A stretch of DNA of 64,000 nt, taken from the NCBI GenBank assembly GCA_964016885.1, contig OZ024741.1:131564001-131628000 (forward strand), given 5' to 3'. A program made the translations under genes and the position numbers. The stretch is from Eledone cirrhosa (lineage: Eukaryota). The first letter of the stretch is position 1. Every line of letters starts with the position of its first letter. Shown piece after piece: positions 1,742 through 50,858 of this stretch. Below the pieces are notes generated by a model. That model had not been told where the DNA came from. It searched no databases and saw only the letters and a program-made list of their open reading frames with translations.

Positions 1742-1789
1742 ATTATTATTATTATTATTATTATTAATATTATTATTATTATTATTATT
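1742..1789. repeat. (ATT)n spacer/target with AAT interruption
   Basis: (ATT)8-AAT-(ATT)7; the same AAT-(ATT)7 recurs at 6725-6748. Confidence 0.95.
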
Positions 1790-2003
1790 GGCGACCTAAG
1801 TAGTAAATCGTATCATCGTGAGCTACGCAAAGGATTGTTATTTTCAGTTGTTTAAAATTGCCATTTATGGAAATTTTTTATTGTTAAATGTATATAAGTG
1901 CACATACATTGTTATCTGAAAAGGACACCCAAAATGATTGGGGCCTTGAGCCCAAAATTTAAACTTTTATAATTATCAAACAAAAATTTTTCTTTGAAAA
2001 ATC

Positions 2004-6443: not shown

Positions 6444-6748
6444 ACTAAAGGTGGAAAACTGGGAGAGGGCACTTGCCTTGGTGGTCAGGGTCATTGTGGC
6501 TTTTTACTGGGCTTTCTCCACAAATGTCCCTCCGAAGTCTCCCCCCTATTGGGGAATTTTTCATTGTTATTTTCATTGTTATTTTTGTTACATCCTCTGT
6601 TTTTGTTTTTTTTACACGCAGAAATGCCCATTTGTACCGTCCTGCATTGTCCTGCACTGTCCTTAATGTCTACTTTATGTAAACCCTTGTGGTTAATAAA
6701 GAAATCATTATTATTATTATTATTAATATTATTATTATTATTATTATT

Positions 6749-9700: not shown

Positions 9701-11649
9701 GCTAGGGAACCTGGCACGGGTGGGTCCTTGATCAATTTAGATCAGTCGAAAGCTTTCGATAGGGTCGACCATCATTACCTAGCAGCAGTCCTGAGGGCGG
9801 CTGGCTTTAGGCCCGTCTACAGAAGCTGGATCGCTGCCATGCACAGCGACATCTGCTCTGTGGTGAGAGTGAACGGTCACTTTTCGGAACCGTTCAACAT
9901 CATGCGCTCGGTCCGCCAAGGATGTCTCCTCTCGTCCCTCTTGTACGTATTGACTCTTGAGCCATTACTGCACAAACTGGAGACGTTGAGGGGGTCCCGC
10001 GCGAACTAAGATGCGGAAGATCCGTGTCAGCATATGCCGACGATGTCACTGTAGTGGTGTCGAACGCCAAACACATCGAGGCGATCGGCACTACACTAAG
10101 AGAATACGAAGCGGTGACAGGAGCAATGATCAACCAGGAAAAGTCAGTGGGCCTGCAGCTCGGCACCTGGAGAGGCATGTCCATGCCGTCCAACAGCGTC
10201 GTCGGACGCTGGACGGACGGACCGGTTAAATTGCTAGGGGTCTGGTTCGGTTCGGACCTCCAAACGGACAAAAACTGGGACGAGGTGACGAGCAGGGTGG
10301 CTTCTCTCACCCAGAAATGGGCGGAGAGGGAGCTATCCCTGAAAGGTTGTGCGGAGGTGGCTAACGCGTACATCGCGTCCGTCATATACTTCCGTCTGAC
10401 CATCGTACCTTGTCCTAAGCCCCGCCTGACTGCGCTGGAGCGTTTGCTCTTTCACTTTTTGTGGAAGAGACGCGCACCGATGATCAGGCGGTCCATCTGC
10501 TGTCAACACCCGCTACGTGGAGGGCTGGGCATGCCGTGGCTGATGATGCGCAGACACGCGCTCAGGCTACGACATCTCCACCTCTTCCTCGACGATGATC
10601 ATGTGTGGTCGCCGTTTGCTAGACACGTTTTTCCCCAGCTCGTCTCCTTGACGGAGCTGTAGTCCTGGGTCAAGCGAAGACCGAGAGGGAGCGCTTGGAG
10701 ACTGGAATGTCTTCAGGCGCTCACAGCCCTCGACCAATCAGGCAATGTGATCGGTGGAAACTCCACATTGGCGTTCTATAGAGGATTAGTGGAGGGAAAG
10801 AGCGACGACGTACTTGGAGAAACTCTAGGCGTCGACGAAAATCAACTAGTCAATCACTTCGGAAGGACTTTCGGGCCGGGGCCTATGGACAACTTCCAGA
10901 AATCCTTGGCCTGGCAGTGCTACCGAGGAGCTTTGCCAGTTCGGGATAAACTCTACAGGCATGGAGGTGCCGTCAGCCGGGCATGTCCGAGATGCGCGCA
11001 GGGCGACGAAACCGTCCTACACGCACTCGTCCAGTGTCCGAGCATTGCTGACTTGTTGGTTTATGTCGAACACCTGCTGTCACGTGTAGGATGGATCCAG
11101 CTATCAGCTGAGTCCATCGTGAGGATTGCCCCGCCCTCTTCCTTTAGCCGGGACTGGGCAAGCAGTTTTTATCTGTCTGGTGGCCATGGCGAAAGAGATA
11201 GTATGGTGGAAACGTTTGAAAGGGCTGAAGACGAGCACTTACCTCTTCGGTGATGCCCTGATTAACTTTTTCAAATTTCATTTGAAAAGGAAAATCAGGG
11301 TAGAGAGGGAAGTGCTCTTTTGCCAGCATTTTGTTGAAAGATGGGTGAGAGAAGCAAGTATGGCCCGAGTGAATGGGCCTACTCTGAGTATGTGTCTGTA
11401 AATTAAAGGTGTAAAACTGGGAGAGGGCACTTGCCCTGGTGGTCAGGGTCACTGTGGCCTTTTAATGGGCTTTCTCCACAAATGTTCCTCGGAAGTCTCC
11501 CCCCCTATTGGGGAATTTTTCATTGTTATTTTTTTTATTACATCCTCTGTTTTTTACACGCATAAATGCCCATTTGTACCGTCCTGTATTGTCCTGTACT
11601 GTCCTTAATGTCTACTTTATTTAAACCCTTGTGGTTAATAAAGAAAGCA
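6749..11649 (+). mobile_element. Tx1-clade LINE copy B, tandem to copy A
   Basis: Near-identical to A over the first ~3 kb, clearly diverged after ~9770 (frameshift ~9995, TAG 10660); ends AATAAAGAAAGC then (ATT)n. Confidence 0.95.
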
Positions 11650-11659
11650 TTATTATTAT

Positions 11660-13169: not shown

Positions 13170-15323
13170 GTATTACCACCAGTAAGACCAGTAGCGGCAG
13201 CAATAGTGGTGCTGCTGAAAAAGGAACCACTTCTTTTGCAGGTGTCGCCTGAAATATCGAGACAGTGTTAGTTACAGAGGAGGAGATGGCAGTCGCAAGT
13301 GCCATGGTGACAAGAAGCGCCAATAGAGTCTCCCTGAACTTCCACCCGATATTTTCAAGGACCAGCAGCTACGGACGGTGACTTACCACACCGTAAGCAA
13401 AATCTCACATCGCGTGGAGAGAGCCACGGAGGCTCAAATCCCAAAGGCCTTGGGGTGCGTCTGGGCACGCAAAACTCACATCACCCGAGGCAGAAAGTAC
13501 GCCACAATAGACGTACTTTTCGCCCCCCCCCCCCAGGAAGCAAAGTCTCACTCTTTGGAAACCCTAAAGAGTGAGGAGATAGTCTTGGTGCCCTCCTACT
13601 GTGGGCAGAAAATTGTGAGGGTCAAAGTGACCCAGGTCCCACCCGACGTGCCCATACCTTGGCTGGCCGCGTCTGTCCTTGCTGGAATCGAGGACAGGAC
13701 GACCATGCTGCAAGTAGAGAAAATAGGGAGAGAGAACTGGTCAGGTATAGGCATGCAAATGCTTATACAAACTGACCAGGAATGTATCGACGCTATCCCC
13801 GATATCATAGCCAGCGAGGAAGGACTCCAACTCCCTATAAGCGTAGAAGGAAGACGGGCAAAATGTTATCTCTGTGGGTCGAAGGGTCACCTCAGGTGCC
13901 TTTTGCCCGCAGAAGACAGCGAAGAAGAAGGCCCCTCTCCTTCCAATACCTGGTCCGCTGCTACCAAGAGCAGGGCAGGAAACAAACGCAGAAGCCCCTT
14001 CCACGGTGAGTACTGCTACTGGGGTCCTGATCAACTTGGATCTATCCAAAACATTCGATAGGGTCGACCATCGGTACCTGGCGGCGGTCCTCGAGGCAGC
14101 CGTTTTCAGGGGTTGGATTGCTAAGATGTACAGTGACATATGCTCAGTTTTGAGGGTGATCGGTCACCTGTCGCAGCCGTTCAACATCATGCGCTCAGTC
14201 CGACAGGGTTGTCCCCTCTCGTCCCTCTTGTACGTATTGGCTCTCGAGCCGTTACTGCACAAACTGGGGGCGATGAGGGGCGTCCCACGCTAACTAGGAT
14301 GCGGGAAATCCGAGTCGGCTTACGCCGACGACGTCACCGTGGTGGTGTCGAGCACCAGGCACGTCCAGATGCTCGGCACCGCTCTCAAGGAAAACGAAGC
14401 GGTGATAGATAAACCAGGAAGAGTCGGTGGCCTTGCAGCTCGGCACCTGGAGAGGCAAGTCAATGCCGTCCGACGCTGTCGTGGGGCGTTGGACGGACGG
14501 ACCGGTTAAATTGCTCGGGGTCTGGTCGGACCGGACCTCCAGATGGAGAAAAACTGGAACGAGGTGACGAGCTGGCCTCCCTCACAAAGAAATGGGCTGA
14601 GAGGAAGCTGTCCCTGAAAGGCCGGGTGGAGGTGGCGAATGCGTACATCGCATCCGTCATCTGCTACCGCCTCACCGTCGTCCAACTCTCACCAAAATGA
14701 AGCGCCTCCTGTTCCGCTTTTTGTGGAAGGGACGCGCTCCCATGGTCAGACAATCCATCTGCTGTCAACACCCGTTGCTTGGAGGACTGGGCATGCCATG
14801 GCTGATGATGCGCAAACATGCGCTGAGGCTGCAACATCTCTGGTGCTTCCTTGACGGTGAACAGGTGTGGTCGCCGTTCGCCAGGCACGTTTTCCCACAG
14901 CTCGTCTCCTTGACGGAGCTGCAGTCCTGGGTCAGAAAAAAACCGAGGGATAGCGCTTGGAAACTGGAATGTCTCCAGACGCTCACTGCCCTCTGCCAGC
15001 TGGGCACCAGTATCGGTGGAATATCCACCTCGGCGTTCTATAGAGGACTAGGCGAGATCCTGGGCGTCGAAGAAGATCAGCTGTTTGCTCTCTTCCGGAG
15101 AACTTTCAGCGCGGGGCCTATGGATAACTTCCAAAAATCCCTGGTCTGGCAGTGCTACCGGGGAGCGCTGCCGGTTCGAGATAAGCTCTACAGGCACGGA
15201 AGTGCCGTCAGCCGAGCCTGTCCGAGTGCGCGCAGAGCGACGAAACCGTCGTGCACGCACTCGTTCAGTGCCCGAGCACTGCTGACTTGTGGAACTATGT
15301 CGAACAGTTACTGTCGCGTGTAG
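13170..15323 (+). mobile_element. Internally deleted Tx1 copy (ORF1 joined to mid-RT)
   Basis: ORF1 knuckle CYLCGSKGHL, then at ~14015 jumps to LINLDLSKTFDRVDH, YADD and the C-terminal region. Confidence 0.85.
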
Positions 15324-15325
15324 GA

Positions 15326-16860
15326 ACCACCAACCTTTACAAGAGCCCGGGAGGTAAATAAATCTTTCCTCTGTCTTTTAGCCTGCCAACATGGCCATAT
15401 TAAGAGTAGGATGTTTAAATTTTCGAGGCCTGAGATCGTCCTGGAAGCAGGGTCACCTGCTCAACGACCTTAGTTCTCTAGAAATGGATGTAATTGCCGT
15501 CAGCGAGACCAGGATTTCCGACACGCGCGCACTAGCAACACACACACACACACTTTCGACGACTATCAGATCTTCGCATCTATTAGTCGGCAGGAAATGG
15601 GAGGTGGGGTGGCACTGCTGTTTAGGAAAGGCCTGGATCTCGAGGTAAGGTCGATCTTCCGGGACCTGGACGGTAAGTTGATGGTCTTGAACGGAAACAA
15701 TAGCGAAGGTTGTGCCTTTAGACTGATGGCCGTCTACGCCCCTACCGGTGTAGGACGGCCGGATTTCTTTAGATGCCTGGAAGCCTTTCTGGTTACGTCT
15801 CACCCTTTACTGTTAGCGGGGGTCTGGAACCGCACCTTAGACCCAATCTGGGACTTGTGTTGGTGTATCCGATAGATGCGGGAGGAGCAAAAGCCTCAAG
15901 TACCTAATCAGCCAGTTCCAACTGTTTGACAGGTACTGACTATATTCCCTAATGCGCCAGTGTGGACAGGGACAAAGCGTTTAGAGACATCTAGATCGTA
16001 CTTAGATAGGTTTCTAATTAGATTAGTGGATAAGGATAGTATAGGGTGTCCACAATTACATACGGTCATCTACTCAGATCACAAGTTTGTGATCTGTATG
16101 GTCGACCTAGATAAGACGCGTAGGTTAGGACCTGGTTACTGGAAGCTGAACATGTCATTTCCGGCACGTAAGGCTTACAGGGACCGGGTCAACAATTTAG
16201 TAAAGAAAAAATTGACAGGGGGAGTCGTCAAGAACAGAGATTAGATTAATGTCGATAGAGGTTAGCAAAGAAGTAGCGTTAGAGAAAAATAGAAAGGAGG
16301 GGGAGTTGGTAGATAAGTTAGACGAGGCTATTTGTAGTGGCATTGCTACTGACGCGCTAACGGCGAGAATGGCATTAGATCATTTCTTCAATGCGAAACA
16401 CGAAGGTTCCATTGTCAGAGCTAAGGCGTGTGCTCTGAGAAACAAGGGAACGGAAGCTGTTCGAGGGGCCCGATTGGCAGAGGCGCAGCATGGTAATAAA
16501 ACCACGATTCGGTCTTTGACGAACCGAGACGGACTCGAGCTGAGCGATTCCAAGCAGATGTGTGAGGCATTTCGCCAACATTTTTCTCGGTTGTTCGTGG
16601 GAAGTGGTGGGTCAAAGACGGTGGTGGACTTCAGTCCCTATCTCAATGGCTTGCCGCAACTCTCGACGGCCGAGGCTGAGCGCTGCGAAAGGCCGATTAC
16701 TTCAGCCGAGATTCAGGATGACCTTGTCGGCTGCCATTCCTTAGCTAGTAGCAGCCGTTTTCCCAGATGTTAAGGAAAAAACGACCATACTAGAGTTCTT
16801 CAGAATAAAAAGAGAAAACTGGTCAGGAAGGGGATGGAGCCACTCATCTTAACAGACCAC
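15326..16860 (+). mobile_element. Tx1 fragment: inter-ORF region, APE endonuclease and start of RT, then a short ORF1 piece
   Basis: MAILRVGCLNFRGL..VSET, VYAP, SYLDR, YSDH, GYWKLN; ~16775-16860 resembles ORF1 RENWSG. Confidence 0.85.
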
Positions 16861-16959: not shown

Positions 16960-17770
16960 TTTCCATAGAAAATACTTTCTTATTGTACAACTCCTAACAT
17001 CGCCTAAAACATCGTTTCTTCTAACCTAGCTAAACTCAATTTAAGTAGAATACACACAGACCAAGTCATTAACCGAACCAGACAATACAACTGCACTGGG
17101 CGAAGTAAATGCGCACATAACATTAAATGAGCGGGAGAAAATCATGTATGAATGTGCAATGTTATAAACTACTACTATAAACAAAGTGTATACAGGTTTT
17201 ATTGCCTGCAAATTCTAAACAACATTTTACCCGCATAAACACAGCTTTAGAAACGCCGCCCGGAAAAACCAACGACACTATCGAATCATATATGCGATCT
17301 TCGAGAAAAATGCATCTTTTATGTTGTAATTGAGTATATTGACCAAGGCGAAACCATACACAGGAGTCTCTTTCCATGTAATCTCTGCTCCGAAAAAAGC
17401 ATAAACGTATCCGTCGTTTGACTCAAACATCCCATACACAACTCTACGATATAAATAACCATAATGCTAAGACACTATTCATATGCTTTCTATTACATTA
17501 GGTCAAATATCCCGACCCCATAACATTCCCCAACGACTATATACATTTCTACAACATTAAAGCATATACATTTCTACAAGATAACTAACTCCTTAAACCT
17601 ATACCCCATAGCAACAGAGACTGAAACTAAATATACACTCCACTAAACGTATAGTACTAAGTAACGCCTCCTATACAACACTGTGGCACCTACATCGCTT
17701 AAACATTTCCTGTAGAATAAGGGATACATATTAATAGGTGTAACTACCCCAACAATTGAGATAGACGGTA
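16960..17770 (+). mobile_element. Highly degenerate Penelope-like element (Hydra-type GIY-YIG)
   Basis: Manual translation across frameshifts: LSYCTTPNI, YNCTGRSKC, KVYTG, HKHSFRN, TLSNHI, CNLCSEK, colinear with 25271-25620; ends at (TA)n. Confidence 0.6.
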
Positions 17771-20989: not shown

Positions 20990-22110
20990 AGAACAAAAAT
21001 AAAATAAAAAGGAAAAATACAAAACAAAAACAAAATAATTATACCAAAGATAAGAGCAACATCATGAACGTCGTAGAACCAACCACCGCCATCAACGTAA
21101 CCATCAACACCACCACGACAACCACTACTACCACCACCATAAGGAACATCAACAATAAAAGCCGTTCCCGCCCCCACAATCACCACCAACACCACAATCA
21201 ACACCATCACCACCACCACTATCATTATCCCCATCACCACCAATAACAACACCACAACCAACACCAACACCACAACCACTAACAACATCATGATCTACAC
21301 CAACATCATCATCACCACCATCATCACAATCATCACCAGCAAAACAACAACACTGCCGCTCCCACAACCACAATCAACATCATAGCCAACACCTCAGCGC
21401 CACCTTCACAACCGTCCACGCAGTGTGTCGTAAGTCATCTTCACAGTTGTTCTCAAGAATTAACTAAATCATCACCATCACCATTACCATCACCATCACC
21501 ATCATCACCACAATCGCCATCATCACCGCCATCATCATAACCACCATCATCACCACGATCTCCGCCATCACCACCATCATGACTATCAACACCTTCATCA
21601 CCACCATCATCACTATCACCACCACCATCATCATCATCACCATCATCAGCATCGTCATCACCACCGTCAACATCATCATCATCACCACCATCATCATAAC
21701 CACCATCATCACCACCATCATCAAAACCACCATCATCACCACCATCACTCTCACCACCATCATCACTATCACCACCATCATCATCACCATCATCAGCATC
21801 GTCATCACCACCGTCAACATCATCACCATCACCACCATCATCACCATCATCATCACCATCATCATCACCACCATCACCATTACCACCATCACCTTCACAC
21901 CATCATCGCTAGATTTATCACCAGCAACATCACTACCATCACTATCACCACCATCATCGTTAGATGTATCACCATCACCACCACCACCACCTCCATCACT
22001 ATCTTCATCACCAACATAATCACCAGCATCACCACGTTGATGATCGGCAGAATGACGCAAGCTACAACACCAAATACTACTACTACTATTCTACCACCAC
22101 CTCCACCAAT
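20990..22110. repeat. (CAC/CAT/CAA)n low-complexity tract
   Basis: Trinucleotide mosaic with an internal ~75-bp duplication (~21601 and ~21754). Confidence 0.9.
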
Positions 22111-22603: not shown

Positions 22604-23069
22604 TGATATAAACACTTCTCTATGCCCTACTCCCCTTTCCGCCATTTTTATATTTCATCTGCTTGTCACCCACCTTGTGGATTATCTCCCTGTTGACCAC
22701 TGGCCGCTGATCTCTGTCGTCTGATGCACTTTTACCAATAGTTGTCTTTGGCAGCATTTAACTGATTTAACGGCTGTTCTAGAGATGAGTTTTGTTATTT
22801 TTATATTATTCAAATACTCTCTTGCTGCGTCTCGATCAGATACAAAATTGTTTTTTCATTTATATATATATATGTATATGTATAATATATATATATACAT
22901 ATATATATATGTGTGTATATATATATATATATGTGCAAAAGTTTTATTTAAAATTGTTGGGTTACAACAAGTAAATATTTTATAACCGATATAAAAGGCT
23001 GCCTCCTTTCTTAATGGTCGCTTATATTTATGGTACGTCAAAATTATTTATAAAACTGTTTATATATTG

Positions 23070-23135
23070 TATTTTATCTGACGAAGGCATGCCATATTTT
23101 TAATATGGTATCCCTGAAATATGTATAATGAAATA
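23070..23135 (+). ncRNA. Type-I hammerhead ribozyme
   Basis: Stem I tattttat/atgaaata; CUGACGA 23078-84; 14-bp stem II with one mismatch; GAAA 23116-19; stem III ATA-tg-TAT; predicted cut after A23127; distal tatttataaaac/gttttataaata pairing. Confidence 0.8.
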
Positions 23136-23211
23136 AATATGGTTTTATAAATATAGTTTCCATTTGTTTAATATCGTATATATATGTGTATATTTATATA
23201 CATATTTATAT

Positions 23212-23756
23212 GTCAAAGTGACATTATTGAAAAAATGAGAGGGACAATTCTTTTAGAAAAAGAGTTTTATAATGTATATAAAGTATATAAAGTATATAAA
23301 GTATTACCGGTTTCGATGTATTAGTAAAATCCATCTTATCAAATGTTAAGTACTACAATTAAAAAGAATTAATAAGAATTAAAAATTAAAAATTAAAGAT
23401 TTAAAATTAAGTGTTGAGGCAAGTTTTTTTTATTCTTCCTTGCCTCAACATTTAATTCTAAATCTTTAATTTTTACTTTTTAATTCTTATTAATTCTTTT
23501 TAATTGTAATACTCAACATTTGATAAGATGGAATTTAATAATACATCGAAACCGGTAATACTTTATATACTTTATATACATTATAAAACTCTTTTTCTAA
23601 AAGAATTGTCCCTCTCATTTTTTCAATAATGTCACTTTGACGAATCAAAGAAAGGAAAAATGAAAAGAAAAACAGATCCTTAAATATATTTTCCGTGCTA
23701 CTTCCAGTTTCACCTTTTCTCTATAACCACTGTTTTCTATGGAACCTTACTTCCCT

Positions 23757-23802: not shown

Positions 23803-23810
<8 letters not shown>

Positions 23811-24021
23811 ATGCTTTGGGACGGCCATGTTGCCAATAAGAAACACACGCACCAGTTGCTTTCACTCCAATTTATTATAAATTTAATTTATAATAAATTG
23901 GAGTGAAAGTTACTGGTGCGTGTGTTTCTTATTGGCAACATGACCCTCCCAAAGCATAACAATATCGGTTTCAACACGCGTTTTCAGATAAAGAGTCTTG
24001 CTAAACAAATTCATAAACGAA

Positions 24022-24022
<1 letters not shown>
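23803..24022 (+). mobile_element. Foldback + tail element in (TA)n
   Basis: Arms 23803-23883 and 23885-23965 with a 1-nt centre, 57-bp tail; arm start recurs at ~25770-25815. Confidence 0.8.
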
Positions 24023-24074
<52 letters not shown>

Positions 24075-24197
24075 GGAGGTGAGTTTTATTGTAGTACAAT
24101 AAAGCAATGCAGATATCGGATAAGAAGCACTCTACAGTTTGTAGGACTGGAGTATACATAATATATAAGATCAAAAGATGGTTAAAAGAGTTCCATG

Positions 24198-24268
24198 TAT
24201 TTTATTATGCGCATTTCAAAAACAAATATCATCATGCAATAATATTTGTGTTTTCATCGGATAAAATA
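24198..24268 (-). ncRNA. Type-I hammerhead ribozyme in the PLE terminal repeat
   Basis: Perfect stem I tattttat/ataaaata; CCGAUGA core (U4C); ~15-bp stem II; GAAA; palindromic stem III ATGCGCAT; UA cleavage site. Confidence 0.8.
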
Positions 24269-25270
24269 GGAAGACATGATATGAAGGTTAAAAAACACTT
24301 GTGAATAGTGCAGTTTTAAATCAACATATGAAAAGTAGTTTTAGATTGATGTGTGATATTGGGAAAAACAATTTTTGAGGGGGGGGGTTGAAAAAGAGGA
24401 GGAGATGAGAGTAAAAAGTGGAGGGGGAGGAGTATAATGAGGAAGGATGAGATAGGAGGAGAGATGGGTGATAGAGAGAGAGAGATAGCTTTTATAACTG
24501 AGAAAAATATATTGTTTTACATAGAGAGGTTGAAAAACCGTTGGAAGATAATATATAAATTAAAAGAATTTGAAAATTAACGAAGAGAAAAATAATGTTA
24601 AGTTAAGGTTTGTATATTGAAGGGTTTAATAATATGTGCGGTGAAAAGAAATTGTTAATATGTGTTAAGAATAATATTTAAGGGTTTAATAATATGTGCG
24701 ATGGAAAGAAAATGTTGATATGTATTATTAAAAAAATGTAAAAATATAGCAATAGTAATGTAAGTAAGGATATATTGTGAAAGAAGTAGAAGATAGGATG
24801 AATAAGTTAGATGAGCATGAAAGGGAGAAAAAAATAATGAATTGAGGATGAATAATCTAACGTCAAAAAAAATGTTTATGTTTACGAAGGATTTGTTCAA
24901 GGTGATATAAAGTAAGAATATATTGTACTGTGTAATAATTGTTTCTATGTTAGGCACAATGAGAAAAGGTACAGATTAGGGGTTAGAAATTAAAAGAAAA
25001 GAAAAGGAAAAGGAAGAAAGGGAAGTGATAAATAGGAGTGATATAGAATGAGTAGCTAGTAATATATAATGTATAGTAAATAACTTTGAAATAAGGTAGA
25101 AAGATGGGTATATTTTTAAAGAAGTATATATATATATATGTGCCTTTGAGAAAAGGATTTTAAATTGATAAAGTATTAGATATTAGCTGTATACTTTATG
25201 GAATGTTCTGTGGAATTTATGCAAGCAGAGAGAAAACAAGTCAATGCGTCTATTTATTATAGAATCTAAA

Positions 25271-25620
25271 TTAGATATAATGGTAAATTTTTTCATTTAA
25301 ACAGAGATTGCAAGTCTTGGATAGAGAACTGTTCAAGTATGTAGAAGCAGAAGAAACCTTTTTCCAAGAGATGTTATATTTAATATTGTTGTCTTTCAAG
25401 GACCATATGAGTTCTGAGAGTGCCGTGTTGGTTCTTTTAAGTTGGTATTTAAAAGACGAATGATGATTATAAAGACGAGCTTTAAAGGAGGTGGAAGTGG
25501 AGCCAAAATAGGTGAAGGAATTGGTATCAGTTATAACTTTACATTCGTAGATTAAGTTTTTTTTCAAGACAATGGTTGTTGAGAGGACATTTATTTTTAA
25601 CAGGGCAATTGCAATTGCCC
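25271..25620 (-). pseudogene. GIY-YIG endonuclease domain of the PLE
   Basis: CNCPVKNKCPLNNHCL (frameshift in the A-run) then LIYECKV..YFGST..FKARLYNH..SF..TALS..IW..CNLCLNEK. Confidence 0.85.
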
Positions 25621-25962
25621 TGTTAAAAATAAATGTCGTCTTAAAAATAAATGTCCTCTGAAAACACAAATATTATTGCATGATGATATTTGTTTTTGAA
25701 ATGCGCATAATAAAATACATGGAACTCTTTTAACCATCTTTTGATCTTATATATATATATATATATATATATTGTTATGCTTTGGGAGGGTCATGTTGCC
25801 AATAAGAAACACGCATATGTACGTTTTATGAGTATATGAACAGCATAGATGTTACTGTAAATATTTACATAGCAATCTGTATCTGTGTTATGTATTGATT
25901 GAGCTATGGTTAGAGGTATCAGGCCTGTTTTTGTGTATATTATAATTAAGTAGATGCATGAA

Positions 25963-26364: not shown

Positions 26365-26519
26365 AGGTGGTTAATGCCTTCTTAACCACTTTTTCAGTTT
26401 GTATGGCGTTTTAACATATTGTTTAGCTCTAGTTTTCTTAACTATTGAGCGCTTACCAGCATTTCTACGATTTTTCGTTTCGCTTTTTCTACCAGCCGAA
26501 ATACGATTCTCTCTGAATT
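26365..26519. repeat. Dispersed (TA)n-anchored repeat family
   Basis: Reverse complement aligns with 51001-51165 and 31452-31580 (gagaatcgtatttcggc...gcgctcaata..accagagcta). Confidence 0.75.
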
Positions 26520-26534
26520 ATATATATATATATA

Positions 26535-27400
26535 CGAGGTGTGTCAGAAAAGTTCCACGACTGATGTCACAAAAAAACCCAAACTTCACACTAAGAGTTT
26601 TTTCCTTCAAAGTAATCCCCTGGAGTCTAATGCACTTTTCTATCCTTTTCTGCCACGCTTGCATGCACTCCTGGAAGGATTCTTCCGGGATCCTCCGCGT
26701 TCCGTCGTCACGGCCTTTTTCATGTTGTCCACGTCTTCAAAACGCGCCCCCCCCCTGGTCGTACTCGAAAATCCATGACTCATCGCCGGTGATGACTGTC
26801 CCTAGCAAGTCTGGTTCGGTTTCAAGACGCCCGAGGATGTCTTGGCACACTTGCATGCGTCGACCCTTCTGGTCATCGTTCAGCAGTTTACGCACCATCT
26901 TCGCGCAGACTTTCCCCATGTCCAAATCTTCAGTGAGAATCTTCCCGACGCTGTCCCGATTCATGCCCAGCTCATTTACCATCAGTCGAACAGTCAGCCG
27001 ACAATCGCTACGCGCCATCTGCCTGATGCGCTCAACGTTGACCTCAGTCCTCGTTGTTGAGGGCCTTCCGGTCCTGGGGTCATCTTGCGCCACTCAAAAA
27101 CACGTGAGCGTGACATCATCTCATCTCCATACACTTGCTGCAGCAATCCCAGTTCTTCTGACGGAGTTTTCCCCAACCGTACCAGAAACTTCAAGTTTGT
27201 TCGTTGCTCTGTGCTCATTGCTTGATGACCTGAAACAGAGGACATGTATAAAAAATTATGAAGAAAAAAGTTTGATCGCTGCAGATTACAGTTACATACT
27301 CCAGGGAGATTACTTTGAAGGAAAAAACTCTTGGTGTGAAGTTTGGGTTTGAAATAAATCTTTTGTGACATCAGTCCTGGAACTTTTCTGACACACCTCG
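26535..27400 (-). mobile_element. Non-autonomous mariner with ~100-bp TIRs
   Basis: TA-flanked CGAGGTGTGTCAGAAAAGTTCC TIRs; EQRTNLKFLVRLGK HTH, R.GRP, ITGDESWIFEYD, catalytic core deleted, QGDYFEG end. Confidence 0.92.
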
Positions 27401-27694
27401 TATATATATGTATACATATATCATAAAGGTTTTAACCAGTATATACATTATATATAACGAGCAAGAGTTTTTTGATAATCGTAAATGATAGATTTAGAGA
27501 AAATCTAGACATGATAAAAAAATGTGACGATATATATATGATGTAAATTTAATTTAGGTAAAACAATATTTTTTAAGCCAGAATTCGTGAAAGGAACTAC
27601 ATTCAAACATTCCACAATTTCTTCTTCACATAGAAAAGGGATTATATTTATACATTTCAGATTTAAACCATATCTATTGGCATGTAGATGTAAA

Positions 27695-27880: not shown

Positions 27881-28441
27881 ATAATGAAACAATGATAGTA
27901 AAAAAATACACCTGCGTCGAAGCTGCTTACTTTAAATTAACATACATTTATATGTATGTATATACTGTATATAAATATATATATTTTTTTCTAATTCTTC
28001 ATTTTAATTTGTATATCACATATGCAACAACACAGCACGCCATTTTTCATTTCTATATATATCGCTGCTGCTAGCTGCAACATTTAGTATTTCGCCCCGT
28101 TCTTTGGTAGAACGAAATCTTGTTGATGAAATGAATCCTCTGTTCGATCATGAATACCACGAGCTTGCCAGTTACGTAAGTCTGATTTCGGATTCATAGA
28201 AACACTTTAAACGCTTAACGTTTGATTTGTCCAGGTGTATTTTTCTCAACCTGTTAGTTCTTTCGTTACTTTGGTATATTGTGTGTTAGATTTTTGCCTA
28301 CCACAATGTTCAATTTGTCAAGCTATTTACACGTATGTTATTACTCTAAGGACCTACCTTGTCGAGTGCTTTGCTAACTCATTCATATAGTTGGCCGAAT
28401 TTGCTTGCACACCACCAGAGATTCGATTTTACTAAGCCTCC

Positions 28442-28478
<37 letters not shown>

Positions 28479-28681
28479 TACGTATATGTACAATATATAA
28501 TTATGTACATATATTCATATATATTTGTATTTATATATACTTTCCTGATGATCCACTTCGAATGAAACAGTTCTTGTCCTGTAGAAGCCATTTTTATATT
28601 ACATTTATTGTATACACTCTGTTAATATATTGAGTACGTTACTTACTCTGGTTACACACACACACATATTTATATATCTAT

Positions 28682-29983: not shown

Positions 29984-30574
29984 ACAAAGAGTAAACAACA
30001 ACAATATTTTAAAGAAACAATACGAAAGACATTCTCACTATGATAATAACATCAGCAGCAACTAAAATAAGCGACAACAATAAACACGAAACACAATATA
30101 TAAACCTTAAAAAATAGAAGCAGACGATCTTTTCCTACATTATCTATATGTATTTAACAAAGTGTCTGTCTGTTTCCCTTTCTCCTTCTCTAGCCCATAA
30201 CACTTCATGTTCACCATTTTTACTCTACTCCTCACTCCCGTATTAACATTGATATCGTCTGCTAATATTTAAACATTATAGAGAAATGTAGACTGAAAAG
30301 GAAAGAAAAGAAATTAAATACAGAATAGTACAAGTGAATAGTACAGAATAGTACAAGTGAAAGTACAACGTCATAAATTGATGTTACTAATAGCGGCAAT
30401 AATAATTTAGTTCTTTTTTCCATTATTAAACAGACATTTCACAAATTGTGTATATATTTTTGTGTAGTTAGTTTATTTTTCATGCTTTGTTTGTCTTTTG
30501 TTTTTTAATACGTTGTTTCTGTATAATCCGGAAGTAATCTTTCTGCCCCACCCCTCGTTATATATTTATATATA

Positions 30575-31208
30575 CGAGGTGTGTCAGAAAAGTTCCAGGA
30601 CTTATTTCACAAAAGATTTATTTCAAACCCAAACTTCACACTAAGAGTTTTCTCCTTCAAAGTAATCCCCCTGGAATATGTAACTGTAATCTTAGCTCTG
30701 TGCAGATGGCGCGTAGCGATTGTCGGCTGACTGTTCGACTGATGGCAAATGAGCTGGGCATGAATCGGGACAGCGTCGGGAAGATTTTCACTGAAGATTT
30801 GAACATGCGGAAAGTCTGCGCGAAAATGATGCGAAAACTGCTGAACGATGACCAGAAGCGTCGATGCATGCAAGTGTGCCAAGACATCCTCGAGAGCGTC
30901 TTGAAACCGAACCAGACTTGCTAGGGACAGTCATCACCGGCGATGAGTCATGGATCTTCGAGTACGACCCGGGCGGGGGGGGGGGGCTGTTTTGAAGACG
31001 TGGACGACATCAAAAAGGCCGTGACGACGGAACTGTGGAGGATCCCGGAAGAATCCTTCCAGGAGTGCATGCAAGCGTGGCAGAAAAGGATGGAAAAGTG
31101 CATTAGACTCCAGGGGATTACTTTGAAGGAGAAAACTCTTAGTGTGAAGTTTGGGTTTGAAATAAATCTTTTGTGACATCAGTCCTGGAACTTTTCTGAC
31201 ACACCTCT
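30575..31208 (+). mobile_element. Second non-autonomous mariner, further deleted
   Basis: Same TIRs and TA flanks, same core deletion at the G-run, additionally lacks the HTH region. Confidence 0.92.
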
Positions 31209-31240
<32 letters not shown>

Positions 31241-31386: not shown

Positions 31387-31831
31387 TTATATATATATAT
31401 ATATAAATATATATATACAAATATAAATATAAATATAAATATACAAATATAAATTAGCGAGAATCGTATTTCGGCTTTGGAATTAGCGAAAAACAACTTC
31501 GAGATGTGTGGCAAGCGCTCAATAATTCTGACGAACCAGAGCTACAACATACGTTAAAGGCCAAACACACTGAGACGATGGCAAAGTGGAATAACAGGTA
31601 ATCAATACTAAATATTTGTTAAAGGTTGTAGCGGTCACTGGATATCTAGCCCCAAACGCCGCCATTTCAAAAATGATACAATAGCTGAAATCAGAACATA
31701 CCATAGATCACATACCACGCCATCCATTCACCGTTTTTAGCGGTGAAAGAAAAAACCCAAATTTATATTTCAAAATTGTCAGCTTCGGATTAACAAAAAT
31801 TATACAGCGCCGAAATAGTTTCTTCTATCTT

Positions 31832-32399: not shown

Positions 32400-32479
32400 T
32401 ATTGCCTCGTCTGACGAACGAATGAAGTCGTTTATTTCGTATTCGCCTCATTCGGGAAACCTCTGGTAATGAGGTAATA
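32400..32479 (+). ncRNA. Type-I hammerhead ribozyme
   Basis: 11-bp stem I tattgcctcgt/atgaggtaata (G-U pairs); CUGACGA; stem II cgaatga/tcattcg with A-G first pair; GAAA; stem III ACC-tct-GGT; cut after A32468. Confidence 0.8.
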
Positions 32480-32531: not shown

Positions 32532-32533
<2 letters not shown>

Positions 32534-32731
32534 GAAGGGGTTACACAACAGTTAGTTCACCATACTGAGAACAATTGTTTCACCTTAGCGGATCCTCAGC
32601 TCGTAATGGACCTCTAAGTTGAAACAATTGTTTACAGTATGGTGAACTAACTGTTGTGTAACCACTTCTACCTAACTCGTCCCATGGACTGAGTGCTCTA
32701 CCACTACGGATATTACCTTCCAGTGTTCTAC

Positions 32732-32735
<4 letters not shown>
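32532..32735 (+). mobile_element. Foldback + tail element in (TA)n
   Basis: Arms 32532-32588 and 32614-32670, 65-bp tail, (TA)n on both sides. Confidence 0.8.
32563..32605 (-). ncRNA. Minimal type-I hammerhead
   Basis: tacgag-CUGAGGA-tccgctaaggt-GAAA-caattg-UU-ctcagta; palindromic stem III; short stem II. Confidence 0.65.
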
Positions 32736-33745: not shown

Positions 33746-36700
33746 CTACAGGCTTATGTAAAGAGAAGGCCCATTCACACGGGCCATTCTCGCCACTTTC
33801 ACCCACCTTTCATAAAAACGACTGGGGTGCAGCACCTCTCTCTCCATCCTGATCCTTCTTTCGAAATGATATCGGAAGAAACGGACCAGTTGTTGGCCAG
33901 AGAGAAAGGTGCCTGACCTCAGTCCTTTCAGACGCGTCCACCATACAACTTCTTTCACCATGGCTATTACGCACAGAAACACCGCCTCTCCTTCATCTTT
34001 GAAGGGGGGAGGCGGCTTGATCATTACAATAGACTCGGTGGTCAACCGGATCGGTCCCACCCTTGACAGCAGTTGTTCGACATATCCCCACAGATCGGCT
34101 ACGCCCGAGCAGTGTACCAATGCGTGTGCAACGGTTTCCTCGTCGCACACGCATCTGGGACAGATCTTTTTGGCGGGGTCCCTACCCGGGCGCCCGTGTC
34201 TGTAGAGTTTTACTCAGACGGGTAGAGCCCCTCGGTAGCACTGCCAGGCCAGGGACTTCTGGAAGTTGTCCATAGGTCCCGGGCTGAATGTCCTACCGAA
34301 CAGGCTGGCCAGTTCGTCCTCCTCCATGTCTAGGGCTTCTCCGAGGGCGTCGTCGCACCTGCTGCGTACCAGCCCTCTATAGAATGTTGCGGTGGAGTCT
34401 CCACTGATAACCGGATCCGCCTGCCAGAGGGCGGTGAGCGCCTGGGCACACTCAGTGTGCCAGGCGCCCAGTTTTCTCGGTCTTTGCTTGACCCAGGATT
34501 GCAGCTCGGTAAGTGAGACGAGTCTGGGAAAGGTTCGTCTCACAAACGAGGCCCACACCGGTTGACCGGTGAGGAATACGTAGAGGTGCCGTAGCCTTAA
34601 TGCGTGTTTACGCATCATTAGCCACGGCATTCCCAGCCCTCCTTTCGAAGGGTGTTGACAGCAGATGGATTTCCTCACCATAGGCGCCCGCCTCTTCCAA
34701 AGGAATTGGAAGAGCGCGCGCTCCATCTTGGTGAGGGTTTCCCTTGGGCAGGGCACTACGGTCAGGCGGTAGTAGATGACGGACGCTTTATAGGTGTTCA
34801 CCACCTCCGCCCGACCTTTCAGGGATAGTTTGCAACTGGCCCACTTCTGGGTCAGTGCAAACACCCTGTTCGTAACCTCCGCCCAGTTCTTCTCCACCTG
34901 GAGGTCCGGTCCGAACCAGACCCCGAGCAACTTCACCGGGCCCTCCGTCCAGCGTCCGACGAAGCCATCGGAGAGCATCGGTCTGCCCCTCCACGTGCCG
35001 AGTTGCAAACCGATCGACTTGTCCCGGTTCAGCTTAGCCCCTGTGAACCTTTCGTACTCCTCCAGTAAGGTGCCGACCGCCTCGATTTCGGAGGCCGTCG
35101 ACACCATTACTGTCACGTCATCGGCGTAGGCCGACACCGCTTTCCGCAATCCCGGTTCCAAAGGGATGCCCTGCAACAACTCCAACTTCCGCAGTAGTGG
35201 CTCGAGAGTCAATACATACAGAAGGGAGGAGAGAGGGCACCCTTGTCGGATGGACCGCGCGATTTTGAACGGCTCCGAGAGGTAGCCGTTCACCTTAACC
35301 CTAGAGCAGATGCGGCTGCTGTGCATAGCAGTGATCCAGCCCCTGAAAACGGGTCCGAAGCCTGCCGACGCTAGCACCGCATCCAGGTAACCATGGTCGA
35401 CCTTATCGAACGCCTTAGATTGATCCAAGTTGATCAGAGCCCCACCAAAGCCGGGTTCGTTCCCAACCCTCTCTATGATGTATCGCATGAGGTGGAGGTT
35501 GTCATGGATGGACCTGGACGGGATAGCGCATGTCTGCGCATCTCCTACCAGGTTGCCCACGACAAGCGCCAACCTCTTTGCTAGCACCTTGGCCAAAATC
35601 TGTAACTCTGTATTTAGCAGAGTTATGGGCCTGAAGTTACTTATTTCGTCCCCCTTGTTCTCGTCCTTCCTCACTAGCGTGACTACGCCCTTGGTCACAG
35701 TACAGGGAATTCTCCCGTTCTGTTGCCAGTTGCAGTAGACCGCCTCGAGGAGATCGGGGAACAAGTCCGGCATAGCTAGATATAATTCGTAAGGAAGACC
35801 ATCGAGACCCGGGGATTTGCGTTTGCCGCATTGGCCCAGCACGTCCTCTATCTCAGCGGCCGAAATCGGCTCCTCGCAGGACTTCGCCTCCCTGTCCGAG
35901 AGACGCGGCAGGCCGTCGAGGTATGGACCGAAGTCCACATTCCCAACCGGCTCCCCGCCCCTCCCGAACAGTCAGGCAAAGTGCCTTTGAAAGGCCTCAC
36001 ACATCTGCCTAGGCTCAAGAATCGCCCGTCCATTCAGGTCTCGCAAAGACCGGATGGTGGATTTAGTTCCACTGTTGGCCTCTGTCACGCGGGCCCAGCT
36101 AACAACTTTGGTCCCCTCGTTTCCTAGAGCACGTATTTTACTTCGGACAACGCAGCCTTCGTGCTTCGCGTCGAAAAACTGGCTCAAAGCCGTTCTCGAC
36201 GCTAGCACTCTGGCCACGTCGTCGCTTCTAATAGCCTCTTCTACTCTATCTATTAGCTCCCTTTCCTTCCTATTCCTATCCGCAGCTAGAACCTTACTAA
36301 ATTCTATCGAGACTACTCTAATCTCTCTCTTTAGAGATACCCACCACCTGCTGTTGACGATCGCTCCAGTCAACCGTTCCTTAACTAACGTACTAATCCG
36401 ATCCCTGTAGGCTCTACTTGCCGGCAAGGACAAGTTGAGCCTCCAGTAACCGGGGCCCTGTCTATGCGTTCTATCAAGTTTGACCATGCAGGTCACCAAC
36501 TTGTGGTCTGAATAGCCAACCATGAGCATTTCTGGACAACTTAAAAAGTCCCTGTCCTTATTTCTAACTAAAAATCTATCTAGGTACGACCTAAATGATC
36601 CGCTGCGATTTGATCAAGACCAGGTTGGCACCGTCGGAAAATCTAGTCGAAATCTATCGGCCAGGTCAAATCGACCGAGTAACCCCTTGAGGCTGTTGCA

Positions 36701-37183
36701 CCCCTCTCTATCGGGACATGCCCCTGCATAGTCCCAACGTGCATCCAGGATACCATTCCAATTCCCCACTAAAAGCAGGGAACGGGACGTCCCTAGAAAA
36801 GACTCCAGACGCTGGAAAAAGTCGGGCCGCTCTGTCCCAAAAGGGGCATATGCGGCTACCAGCCTAAAGGCTCTACCTTCACCACTGCCAAGGTCCAGCA
36901 CCACCAGTCGACCCCCTGGGTCCAAGTGAACTATCTATGTTGCAAGGCCCATATGTTTTTGCAGCAGAACGACAACCCCACCCCCACCTCCGGGCTGACA
37001 GAGAGATGCGTGCATCTCAAAGTCGTCAAAGGTGGGGGCTAGCTGCCGCATGTTGCTGATCCGGGCCTCGCAGATAACCATCACATTTATAGATTGTGAC
37101 CTGAGGTCATTTAGAAGCATTGCTTGCTTCCAAGACGAGCCCAGGCCACGCGCATTTAGACACCCTACTCTTAGCACAGCCAT
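33746..37183 (-). pseudogene. Tx1 ORF2 (APE-RT-CCHC), one frame with ~5 nonsense codons
   Basis: ORFs 36935, 36614, 35972, 34214 and 33746 are all in the same frame; starts MAVLRVGCLNARGL; contains YSDH and YADD. Confidence 0.92.
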
Positions 37184-37207
37184 GTTGGTGGTAAGGAGAA
37201 AAGGCAC

Positions 37208-38995
37208 TTACCTCTCTGCGTCCCGGGAAACGGGCCGCTCAATTTCCATGCTGGGTGGGGATGGGTTGTTGGGTGTGGAAGTGAAGGGGCATCGGTGTGT
37301 TGTGGGGTTGGGGTGTTTGTGGTTGAGTGGGTGTCTGGGGGGGGGGGGGGGGCCACGTCCTCCGTGAAATTTATTTTCAGTGTTTTGTACAAGTTCATTG
37401 GGACTTTTATCATTTTTAAATGAGGTAGTCCCACAGCAGTTATAAAGTTAGGCCCTTCGGTTTGGACCGAAGGGTTTGCTGAAATTGTTTTCCGTAATTC
37501 TTTGTTGTCTGTGTTCATGTATGTATATTGTAAGGTCTTTTTTTGTGTAGCAGTTAGTGTTGTGTGACAGGGAGGGGTGGTTTGTGTGTAGTTTGTGTTC
37601 TCTTGGGGGGGGGGGTTAAAGTTAACATGTGTGTCTGTGGTGCGTCTCCTCTTCTTTCTCTTTACTTGTTGGAAGGGATCTTTTTCGTCTTGCGACGAAA
37701 GGGGTTCGTCTTCCTTGTTGGGTGGGAGGGGTATGTTTTCTGGTAGTGTTTGCGGTGTGTGTGTTTTTGTATTTGTTTTGGGTGGGGAGGGATTGGGTGG
37801 GACAGTATTCTGTGTTATTTTTTCACGTGTTTGTTGTTGTTGTTGTTGTGGAGGTGGTGGTGGTGGTGGTGGGGTTTTGGGTTTTTGTTGTTGTTGTGGT
37901 TGTTTTTGTTGTTGTTGTTGGGGTGGTGTTGGTAGCAGTGTTTTTTTCTGTGTGAGCTGGGGACAGGCAGCCCTCAGGTGACCTCTATTGCCACAGAGGT
38001 AACAGGAGGGACGCCTACCCTCCACAATAATGTTGAGGTGGGTACGGTCATCCAGCATGACGCGCTCAGGGATTTGGGCGATGCGTTCTGGCCTTATTTG
38101 GATCAGAACTTCGATGCTCGTTCCACTGAACGCGTCGCCGGATGCCTTCCCTATTGAAATGAGGTTGTCCTCGTCTAAATTGAGGAAGCCGGTTAGTAAC
38201 CACCAGTAGTTTATGTTTGGGGTGATGGTGGTTATCCATATCCTCTGGGGTTTTTTACCCATGTAGGTGGGGAAGAAGGTGTAGTGTGTGGACCGAATTG
38301 GCGACACGGAGTATTTTTTCGCCGCCAATTCGTCTTTCATCAATATGGATAAACTCCCATAGAGTTTATCCTTTTGTATAAAAGTGATGTCTCTCATCGC
38401 GTCTTTCAAGACTAACTGAATTTCGGCTTGAGATGGTTGCGCTGGTTTTTTTTGTTTTATTTAAAATTGTTCGGAATACGACAGTTCGTGATTCCGTCTG
38501 TTTTTTTAGTTCTGGAGGTGAATGTATAGAAAACGAACCGTTTTCGCCAAAAGATACATATTTCTTGGCTTTTTCCAGCATTTCTTTTGCTTTTGAAATA
38601 TCTTCAAGCACATACGCGACTGATAATTTAGCCGTTTGTGCAAAAGATATTTTGTTTTCGCTTTGGATTTTAGTATTGTTTTGTTTCTCGTCGTTTGAGT
38701 TGTTTTCATCTTTGTTGTTGTTGTTGTCTTTCTCGTTTGGTGTGTGGATACTTGTGACGTTTGTGATGTTGTTGTTTTTGTTGTCTTTATTGTTGCTGTT
38801 GTTGTCGTTGTTGTTGTTGTTTTCAAATTCTTGTGTAGTTGTGGCTACATCTAGTGGTCGGTCAACAGGTGAAGACAATTCTTCCTCTCTCTGACCTCTG
38901 CCTTTGGCATCTGCTGCTGTGACAGTGGCAGGGGGAAGCTGTGAGTATGACTTCCCCTTTCCTTCTTTGATTGATGGTGAAGATGCTTCAGCCAT
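37208..38995 (-). pseudogene. Tx1 ORF1 with CCHC knuckle, frameshifted
   Basis: ORFs 38366..39004 and 37171..38409; CYLCGNRGHLRAAC; Asn-, Gln- and Pro-rich tracts. Confidence 0.85.
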
Positions 38996-39470: not shown

Positions 39471-39667
39471 ATATATATGTGTTTGTGTCTATATTGTATC
39501 TGTATTATTTTTGACCGTTGGTCAGTCAATGGCAACATTGAGGACCGAATAAATTAGATTACCGATACAAAAGACAGAGAAGCGAAAAGCGAAAACCAAC
39601 CAAACAGTTGAGTGTGTTCTGTTATTAATTCTGGCAATATTACACAAATATGACCCTCCCCAAGTAT

Positions 39668-39724
<57 letters not shown>

Positions 39725-50456: not shown

Positions 50457-50820
50457 ATAGTATAAAAAAAACGAAAAATCAGTGATGCATCTGGACTCAG
50501 TTTATTGCGTGTTACAATTGTTTCGCCGGCAGGTAGCTCGAGACATGATCACTGTATGGATCTGTCCTTTGGACACGGGCAGTTCGTTCGGAGCAAATGT
50601 TCTCTGAAGGAACCTGCAGCCGTAGAATCAGTCAGATCCATACAAGGACCATGTCTCGAGCTACCTGCCGGCGAAACAATTGTAACACGCAATAAACTGA
50701 ATCCAGATGCATCACTGATTTTTCGTTTTTTTATACTATCCACACTCTGCTCTGTATGAATATTGAGTGCTAATTTTGGCATACCGCCTATCGAAGCACC
50801 ATAGCTACCATTATACACAA

Positions 50821-50821
<1 letters not shown>
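50457..50821 (+). mobile_element. Foldback + tail element in (TA)n with a hammerhead 3' half
   Basis: Arms 50457-50564 and 50633-50739, ~68-nt spacer, 82-bp tail; GAAA-caattg-UA in the arms. Confidence 0.8.

Positions 50822-50858
<37 letters not shown>

What the first reader, a model, noticed from the sequence alone, without database searches (positions are those of the whole stretch)
24072..25747. Hydra-type Penelope-like element with intact HHR and perfect inverted pLTR
Seen: CxCx5C linker (CNCPVKNKC), GIY-YIG without the CxxC between the two motifs, C-terminal CNLC, (TA)n flanks, an apparently perfect 89-bp inverted repeat (suggesting a young insertion) and an HHR with an 8-bp stem I. Known (from memory): these traits define the small Hydra PLE clade of aquatic invertebrates. 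Inference: a recently active family in a probable cephalopod, and a candidate driver of the foldback elements.
Basis: partly seen in the sequence, partly recalled or inferred. Interest (0 to 1): 0.7.

Follow-up and report, generated by a model that had tools for sequence, protein, structure and literature searches.

The report
Truncated Hydra-type Penelope retrotransposon foldback
This is a broken 1.7-kb end-piece of a Penelope-like jumping gene, likely of the known Hydra group, sitting between TA repeats with a mutated ribozyme core, and its tail carries a small predicted RNA hairpin shared with unrelated neighbouring repeats that may mark where such elements start being copied.

Summary
Real, mostly ordinary. 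24072-25747 (minus strand) is a 5'-truncated, non-autonomous Penelope-like element (PLE) between (TA)n tracts. Its GIY-YIG remnant fits the Hydra clade: it matches 29 of 34 conserved columns, and 41-43 of 44 long relatives carry RWK, DKT and CxCx5C with an RT. Hydra PLEs are already described in Octopus (Hydra-1_Obim). The 89-bp inverted repeat is perfect, against 4.4% divergence in four neighbouring foldbacks (p 0.01-0.03). That makes this copy relatively young but does not show an active family. The neighbours share its architecture, not its sequence: head-to-head arms, (TA)n at one end, a one-sided tail at the other. This fits the published two-start-site, both-strand priming of a PLE. New lead: a bulged hairpin (RCUC...GAGYRC) in the tail recurs at 9 microsatellite-adjacent sites (6 unrelated families) and, by eye, in 4 of 6 published Hydra consensi; it is a candidate RT-initiation signal.

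The parts
24022..24071 (.). (TA)25 target microsatellite, left flank
24072..24167 (-). 96-nt one-sided tail (3'-most part of the element), beginning with an internal TATATAT at 24167-24161; inferred to be the stretch between two RT start sites
   Evidence: model from PMC11167929
24127..24153 (-). predicted bulged hairpin RCUC-stem-loop-stem-NN-GAGYRC, shared with 8 other microsatellite-adjacent sites in the window
24168..24256 (-). direct arm of the 89-bp inverted repeat (3' part of the pLTR)
24198..24268 (-). type I hammerhead fold: 8-bp stem I, long stem II, palindromic stem III, core with U4C (24259), predicted cleavage after A17 (24206)
24269..25182 (-). about 0.9-kb G-poor 3' UTR (3.4% G) with a 60-nt tandem duplication at 24614-24727
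25183..25613 (-). 3' remnant of the single ORF: CxCx5C linker (25613-25563), GIY-YIG core to CxxC..E (25561-25289), N..CxH and stop (25287-25183); two +1 slips at A runs; no RT
25612..25658 (+). inverted stub at the 5' truncation: 26-nt perfect snap-back copy of the ORF end, 3 extra nt, then a re-copied ORF stretch (18-nt period duplication)
25659..25747 (+). inverted short arm: hammerhead from U7 onward to the internal TA site; lacks the 5' strand of stem I, C3-A6 and the tail; joined to the stub by 1 nt of microhomology
25748..25772 (.). (TA)12 target microsatellite, right flank

Best explanation
The 1.7-kb stretch is a 5'-truncated Penelope-like retrotransposon copy with no reverse transcriptase and two frameshifts, likely of the Hydra clade, which was likely inserted into a (TA)n tract by an intact relative priming reverse transcription from both target strands. 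Shown: the anatomy (TA flanks, head-to-head arms, tail on one arm only, U4C core, palindromic 5' junction). Inferred, by analogy with Poseidon in vitro (PMC11167929): (1) the GIY-YIG endonuclease nicks both strands of (TA)n; (2) one nick primes a long cDNA from the distal start site (24072) to 25611; (3) the other nick primes a short cDNA from a proximal start site at the internal TA run (24168), which stops at the hammerhead core; (4) the long cDNA end snaps back at a TGCA palindrome, copies about 45 nt with a slip, and is end-joined to the short cDNA. The copy cannot move on its own. Its hammerhead is predicted to be weakened and would not have been needed for insertion. The hairpin just 3' of the proximal start is a candidate RT docking or initiation signal. 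Confidence by step: Hydra-type dead copy about 0.93; two-start, both-strand origin about 0.6; hairpin as RT signal about 0.35.
For: Endonuclease: 29 of 34 columns conserved in at least 90% of 44 long relatives are matched, all Cys and His included. Of those 44 relatives: YRDD 44, CxCx5C 43, CxxCxxE 43, N..CxH 43, RW[KR] 41, DKT 42. A Cys pair between GIY and YIG occurs in 0 of 38 parsed long relatives and 0 of 126 direct hits covering the region. A profile of the relatives finds no RT in the window. Four other TA-flanked foldbacks show the same asymmetry, with gaps to (TA)n of 26/119, 0/60, 0/65 and 1/86 nt against 0/96 here. PMC11167929 reports cleavage and extension of both strands, two internal RT starts delimiting the tail, and insertion unaffected by HHR mutants. 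PMC8557442 Fig. 2 describes an inverted 5'-truncated copy and a one-sided tail. Hairpin: 10 of 17 pattern matches lie within 130 nt of a microsatellite, against a mean of 0.45 and a maximum of 4 in 200 shuffles. A model built without this site recovers it as the best non-training hit (33.6 bits, E about 1.5e-6).
Against: No tree against other PLE clades was made, and the long relatives were gathered through one hit (P0001), so they are one family by construction. Only 48 of 110 direct hits long enough to hold the linker carry CxCx5C. Pfam and NCBIfam give no GIY-YIG hit for the remnant. The first linker Cys depends on two bases from the inverted stub. The tail (96 nt) is longer than the published 30-40 nt, and the 3' UTR would make the full element longer than the usual under 3 kb. 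The in vitro data are for a Poseidon, not a Hydra. The total number of hairpin-pattern matches (17) is within the shuffle range (mean 8.6, maximum 19). Single-site fold z-scores are modest (-2.55 to +0.11), and site 32675 scores at background in the held-out model (10.3 bits).
Confidence: 0.75

Rival explanations
1. The insertion began as a perfect palindrome of two 1.45-kb arms, and about 1.3 kb of one arm was deleted afterwards, leaving the central 26-bp hairpin and the outer 89-bp arms.
For: Both arms share the same 5' breakpoint, and the short arm reads as ORF start followed by pLTR end, joined by 1 nt of microhomology. Long palindromes are unstable (established knowledge, recalled).
Against: The deletion would also have to create the 18-nt duplication and 3 extra bases. 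Neighbouring foldbacks have short arms on both sides. It still needs PLE insertion to explain the one-sided tail.
Confidence: 0.2
2. One reading: this family is currently active and is itself the driver of the window's foldback elements.
For: 0 mismatches in 89 (115 with the inner palindrome) against 19 of 436 pooled in four neighbouring foldbacks, Fisher p 0.027 / 0.011. The endonuclease remnant has no in-frame stop within its three pieces.
Against: No second copy in 64 kb and no sequence match to any foldback beyond its own arms. The 95% bound on arm divergence is still 2.6-3.3%. There are two frameshifts and U4C. The best protein relative is 54% identical.
Confidence: 0.15
3. The copy is old, and its arms are identical because gene conversion between inverted repeats homogenised them.
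For: Frameshifts and U4C lie outside the duplicated stretch, so the arms cannot date them.
Against: Neighbouring foldbacks with closer arms are 3.4-7.1% diverged. The endonuclease keeps 29 of 34 conserved residues, unlike the decayed copy near 17.0-17.4 kb.
Confidence: 0.1
4. The foldback junction and the two +1 A slips are long-read or assembly artefacts on an otherwise simple truncated copy.
For: Both slips add one base to an A run, and zero-loop palindromes are a known read-chimera form (recalled).
Against: The same TA-flanked asymmetry occurs at four other, diverged foldbacks. Between the two tandem LINE copies only 2 of 20 indel events are single-base changes in runs of 5 or more, so the window does not look homopolymer-error-ridden.
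Confidence: 0.08
5. The endonuclease belongs to another PLE clade (Nematis, Neptune, Penelope/Poseidon, Naiad) or to a free GIY-YIG gene.
For: No phylogeny was run, and the RT of this very family is not in hand.
Against: No CCHH cysteine pair between GIY and YIG in the remnant or in 0 of 126 hits. The relatives are RT-first, EN-last, with RWK and DKT.
Confidence: 0.03

Closest known systems
Hydra clade of C-terminal EN+ PLEs (Craig et al. 2021, PMC8557442), including Hydra-1_Obim of Octopus bimaculoides
   Same: CxCx5C linker, no CCHH, CxxC and CxH around E and N, (TA)n insertion, 3' hammerhead fold; relatives carry RWK and DKT. File S1 also lists Penelope-13_HM with a 5'-truncated inverted copy.
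   Different: By eye not the Hydra-1_Obim family: different hammerhead stems and a much longer 3' UTR (not computed). Core is U4C, whereas 26 of 26 listed Hydra rows have CUGA. No RT remains.
Poseidon from Anolis carolinensis (Frangieh et al. 2024, PMC11167929)
   Same: AT-rich target, both strands cut and extended, two internal RT start sites delimiting an optional tail, hammerhead not needed for insertion; this predicts the asymmetry seen here.
   Different: Other clade. Its starts lie in an AC-rich stem-loop 111-118 nt into the ORF and the tail is 30-40 nt; here the tail is 96 nt, non-coding as far as seen, and begins with a different hairpin.
PLE-derived solo and opposite-strand hammerheads and non-LTR retrozymes (Cervera and de la Pena 2014, PMC4209133; bioRxiv 10.64898/2026.07.22.740005)
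   Same: Short non-autonomous PLE ends with hammerheads; pairs 100-700 bp apart on opposite strands, and the U3-A8 core variant, were already noted.
   Different: Retrozymes are head-to-tail tandems. The units here are head-to-head, TA-flanked and single.

Membership tests
Hydra PLE clade | C-terminal GIY-YIG EN downstream of RT in one ORF | tested here: inconclusive
   EN is at the ORF's 3' end here but the RT is lost; 44 of 44 long relatives have YRDD and 43 the downstream EN motifs
Hydra PLE clade | CxCX5C linker | tested here: met
   25613-25563; the first Cys codon overlaps the foldback centre; 43 of 44 long relatives, 48 of 110 fragments
Hydra PLE clade | CCHH motif absent (no Cys pair between GIY and YIG) | tested here: met
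   no Cys pair in the remnant (one lone Cys); 0 of 38 and 0 of 126 in relatives
Hydra PLE clade | CxxC and CxH either side of conserved E and N | tested here: met
   both present, CxH after the second frameshift
Hydra PLE clade | RWK and DKT motifs in the N-terminal region | tested here: inconclusive
   region missing from the copy; relatives RW[KR] 41 of 44, DKT 42 of 44
Hydra PLE clade | no IFD, divergent RT4(B) | not tested
   RT absent from the copy; not examined in relatives
Hydra PLE clade | canonical hammerhead near the 3' end | tested here: inconclusive
   fold and position met but this copy has U4C; whether the family has U4 needs other copies
Hydra PLE clade | insertion into (TA)n | tested here: met
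   both flanks
Hydra PLE clade | groups with Hydra in RT/EN phylogeny | not testable with these tools
Penelope/Poseidon, Neptune, Nematis, Naiad | CCHH with two Cys inside the GIY-YIG core | tested here: not met
   definition from PMC8557442
Canonical (intact) hammerhead ribozyme | CUGANGA core | tested here: not met
   CCGAUGA; U4C considerably lowers in vitro activity though tolerated in a viroid (PMC3088659 passage)
Autonomous active element | intact RT-EN ORF | tested here: not met
   no RT, two frameshifts

The most novel reading that the evidence does not exclude
Hydra-clade PLEs use a conserved bulged RNA hairpin (RCUC...GAGYRC), placed between their two reverse-transcription start sites, as the signal that docks the RT-endonuclease. 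Many sequence-unrelated short repeats in octopod genomes keep this hairpin, are mobilised in trans into (TA)n, and become head-to-head foldbacks through both-strand priming: a large unrecognised class of PLE-driven, MITE-like palindromes.
Probability: 0.3. Interest if true: 0.6.

Novelty: new member of a known kind. Interest (0 to 1): 0.33.

Why it matters
The element itself adds one more octopod family to a published clade. What is useful is the anatomy. How PLEs make inverted ends, tails and microsatellite-targeted insertions is named as an open question in PMC8557442. This window shows the same asymmetric foldback five times and a candidate cis signal that can be mutated in an existing type of in vitro assay. 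If the signal holds, many apparent MITE-like foldbacks in cephalopod genomes would be retrotransposon products and a source of long double-stranded RNA (inference).

Tried and rejected
Pfam, NCBIfam and PDB sequence search gave nothing informative for the remnant or the long relatives. The ESM Atlas gave GIY-YIG-like clusters at 0.92-0.93, a lead only. Rfam found no hammerhead and only sub-threshold microRNA-type hits on palindromes, which were rejected as chance. The GxK[FY] (23 of 44) and DKG (4 of 44) counts were not position-specific and were not used. A global alignment of five hammerhead regions was uninformative. My hammerhead descriptor missed two motifs visible by eye (28545 +, 32599 -), so its 4 hits are a lower bound. 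The hairpin model built from all 9 sites found only its training set. The tail hairpin pattern does not occur in the tails of foldbacks 23212-23641 and 23803-23965. The idea that the EN and the hammerhead belong to two nested elements was rejected, because the inverted arm joins ORF and hammerhead sequence in one piece. The cluster-member look-up for names of relatives could not be made. Literature searches and word searches in PMC8557442 main text and the retrozyme preprint found no description of the tail hairpin; subscription papers, Repbase notes, PMC8557442 figures S7-S8 and the supplements of PMC11167929 and of the preprint were not seen and could hold one.

Full report
Observation. The stretch 24072-25747 lies between (TA)25 and (TA)12 tracts. 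Its ends carry an inverted repeat, 24168-24256 against 25659-25747, with 89 of 89 identities. On the minus strand there is an endonuclease remnant in three frames: a CxCx5C linker (25613-25563), a GIY-YIG core ending in CxxC..E (25561-25289), and a last piece with N..CxH and a stop at 25185-25183. The frames are separated by +1 slips at an A8 and an A6 run. A G-poor UTR of about 0.9 kb follows, then a hammerhead fold at 24268-24198 with an 8-bp stem I. The core is CCGAUGA, i.e. U4C, so 'intact' is wrong. All 26 Hydra rows of File S2 of PMC8557442 begin ctga, and a neighbouring hammerhead with a nearly identical stem I (23070) has the canonical core. PMC3088659 says U4C considerably decreases activity in vitro yet is tolerated in a viroid, so the ribozyme is predicted to be weakened, not certainly dead.

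Identity. The 99-aa core finds 2840 cluster representatives at E up to 0.001, none at 1e-30, best 54% identical, and 2 longer proteins among 237 candidates, both with an RT. One of these (P0001) retrieved 1452 proteins; of the 120 listed, 44 are 650 aa or longer. Among those 44: YRDD 44, CxCx5C 43, CxxCxxE 43, N..CxH 43, RW[KR] 41 and DKT 42. A Cys pair between GIY and YIG was seen in 0 of 38 that could be parsed. The remnant, read with X at its breaks, matches 29 of 34 columns conserved at 90% or more. Among the 150 direct hits, 0 of 126 have the Cys pair, 87 of 113 have CxH, but only 48 of 110 have the linker; many are fragments. These are the features that define Hydra in PMC8557442. Pfam and NCBIfam do not recognise the remnant. 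No tree against other clades could be made. A profile of the relatives finds no RT anywhere in the window, only this remnant and a decayed second endonuclease near 17.0-17.4 kb. The copy is therefore non-autonomous. The host is probably an octopod: the only cephalopod-named close relative of a neighbouring LINE ORF is from Argonauta hians (69%); one other close row is labelled as a bacterial MAG, and the rest are unnamed or 'hypothetical'. A Hydra family from Octopus bimaculoides is already published.

Anatomy of the inverted end. The 5' truncation is the centre of a zero-loop 26-bp palindrome (25611/25612), and two bases of the first Cys codon come from the inverted side. The inverted piece reads 26 nt of ORF, 3 extra nt, a re-copied ORF stretch, then jumps about 1.3 kb through 1 nt of microhomology to U7 of the hammerhead. 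It runs to an internal TA site, where it meets the right (TA)n. The long arm continues 96 nt further. Four of seven other foldbacks examined are TA-flanked with the same asymmetry: gaps to the microsatellite are 26/119 nt (23212-23641), 0/60 (23807-23961), 0/65 (32533-32669) and 1/86 (50461-50735); three others (19617, 22343, 42770) are not. By eye, three of the four contain hammerhead parts: a complete motif and a 3' half at 32.6 kb, a degenerate one at 50.5-50.7 kb, and a U3-A8-like core at 23.3-23.5 kb. None shares sequence with the finding.

Age. The arms have 0 mismatches in 89 (115 with the inner palindrome) against 19 of 436 in those four neighbours, Fisher p 0.027 and 0.011; the 95% upper bound on divergence is 2.6-3.3%. 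The copy is younger than its neighbours or has been homogenised. Family-wide activity is untested.

Mechanism. For a Poseidon element, PMC11167929 shows cleavage and extension of both strands of AT-rich DNA, two internal RT start sites whose interval is the optional tail, and insertion unaffected by hammerhead mutants. Applied here (inference): a long cDNA from the distal start, a short cDNA from the proximal start on the other strand, and repair by snap-back and end-joining give exactly this head-to-head structure with one tail. A later deletion from a long palindrome is the main rival. Inverted truncated copies and one-sided tails are known PLE features, and opposite-strand hammerhead pairs were noted in PMC4209133.

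New lead. The tail starts with a predicted bulged hairpin, RCUC-stem-loop-stem-NN-GAGYRC (24153-24127). I drew the pattern from this tail and a by-eye reading of the six consensi in File S7: three match (Hydra-2_Amil, Hydra-2_Ajap 3' ends, Hydra-1_Ajap 5' start), one is a variant (Hydra-1_Crog), and two do not show it (Hydra-1_Amil, Hydra-1_Obim) (not computed). In the window the pattern has 17 matches, which alone is within chance (shuffle mean 8.6, maximum 19). However, 10 of them lie 16-97 nt upstream of a microsatellite on the same strand, against a mean of 0.45 and a maximum of 4 in 200 shuffles. Merging one overlapping pair leaves 9 sites in 6 blastn-unrelated families. All 9 have inner stems of 3-6 bp, and the 7 distant matches have 0-2 (p 9e-5; threshold chosen after the fact, dropped match had 2, families not independent). 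All 9 fold the outer stem in the minimum-energy structure, with modest z-scores. On the alignment 96.8% of 62 cells pair and 4 of 8 pairs change on both sides, above shuffles and slid controls, though the sites were picked by the pattern. A model from 5 sites, excluding this one, recovers it at 33.6 bits and two more held-out sites at 23.8 and 17.9 bits, but the fourth only at background. Five of the 9 sites have hammerhead parts nearby by eye; four do not, and only this one has an ORF, so Hydra specificity is not shown. The hairpin sits directly 3' of the inferred proximal start site, which makes it a candidate RT docking or initiation signal. Searches found no description of it.

Papers seen. 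PMC8557442: abstract, sections 3, 6, 11, 12, 15, word-search passages, supplement parts 1, 2, 52, 53 of 59 (Files S1, S2, S7; figures S7-S8 not seen). PMC11167929: parts 1-2 of 4 of the text, no supplements. PMC4209133: parts 1-2 of 4. PMC3088659: three passages. bioRxiv 10.64898/2026.07.22.740005: part 1 of 5 and four passages. Hammerhead numbering, the instability of palindromes and snap-back end-joining are recalled.

Verdict. A new family member of a known clade in a host group where the clade is already recorded, present as a dead, fairly young copy. The title's 'intact HHR' is wrong and 'active family' is unproven. Interest 0.33, resting mainly on the shared foldback anatomy and the tail hairpin.

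Noticed in passing
window 22933-23178 (+), hammerhead 23070-23135: Short TA-flanked unit with a canonical CUGACGA hammerhead whose stem I is nearly identical to the finding's; it ends about 45 nt after the ribozyme with no tail.
   Followed up: partly
window about 16975-17412 (+): Decayed second Hydra-type endonuclease with stops and frameshifts.
   Followed up: partly
window 23212-23641: Foldback (3.4% arm divergence) with a U3-A8-like hammerhead core and weak stem I in both arms, and a 119-nt one-sided tail.
   Followed up: partly
window 23807-23961, 25773-25812, 39647-39675: Another TA-inserting family: one foldback plus two stubs. The stub abutting the finding's right (TA)n is 40 of 40 identical to the foldback's right arm. 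No hammerhead or hairpin was seen.
   Followed up: partly
window 32400-32479 (+), 32533-32735, 50461-50822, 28530-28655, 50856-50990: Further hammerhead-bearing or hammerhead-remnant units at (TA)n; 50856-50990 has an inverted hammerhead half directly beside a hairpin tail.
   Followed up: partly
window 26366-26520, 50990-51300 (-), 31445-31750 (-), 28180-28445: Repeats ending in the tail hairpin and (TA)n but with no hammerhead found upstream; the first three are one family.
   Followed up: partly
window 1396-11659, 14020-16700, 33762-38460, 59717-62008: Tandem and dispersed LINE copies (RT relatives carry PF00078, PF03372, PF13966); the two tandem units are 95.5% identical.
   Followed up: partly
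window 26519-27431 and 30558-31228: Two related mariner-like transposase remnants (label recalled from motifs), 92% identical.
   Followed up: no
window 24933-24962: 26-30 nt match (E 5e-5 to 6e-4) inside the 3' UTR to the end of an abundant short repeat family (27693, 54439, 54951); unexplained.
   Followed up: no
window 21174-22035: Long (CAC/CAT)n histidine-codon-like microsatellite array.
   Followed up: no
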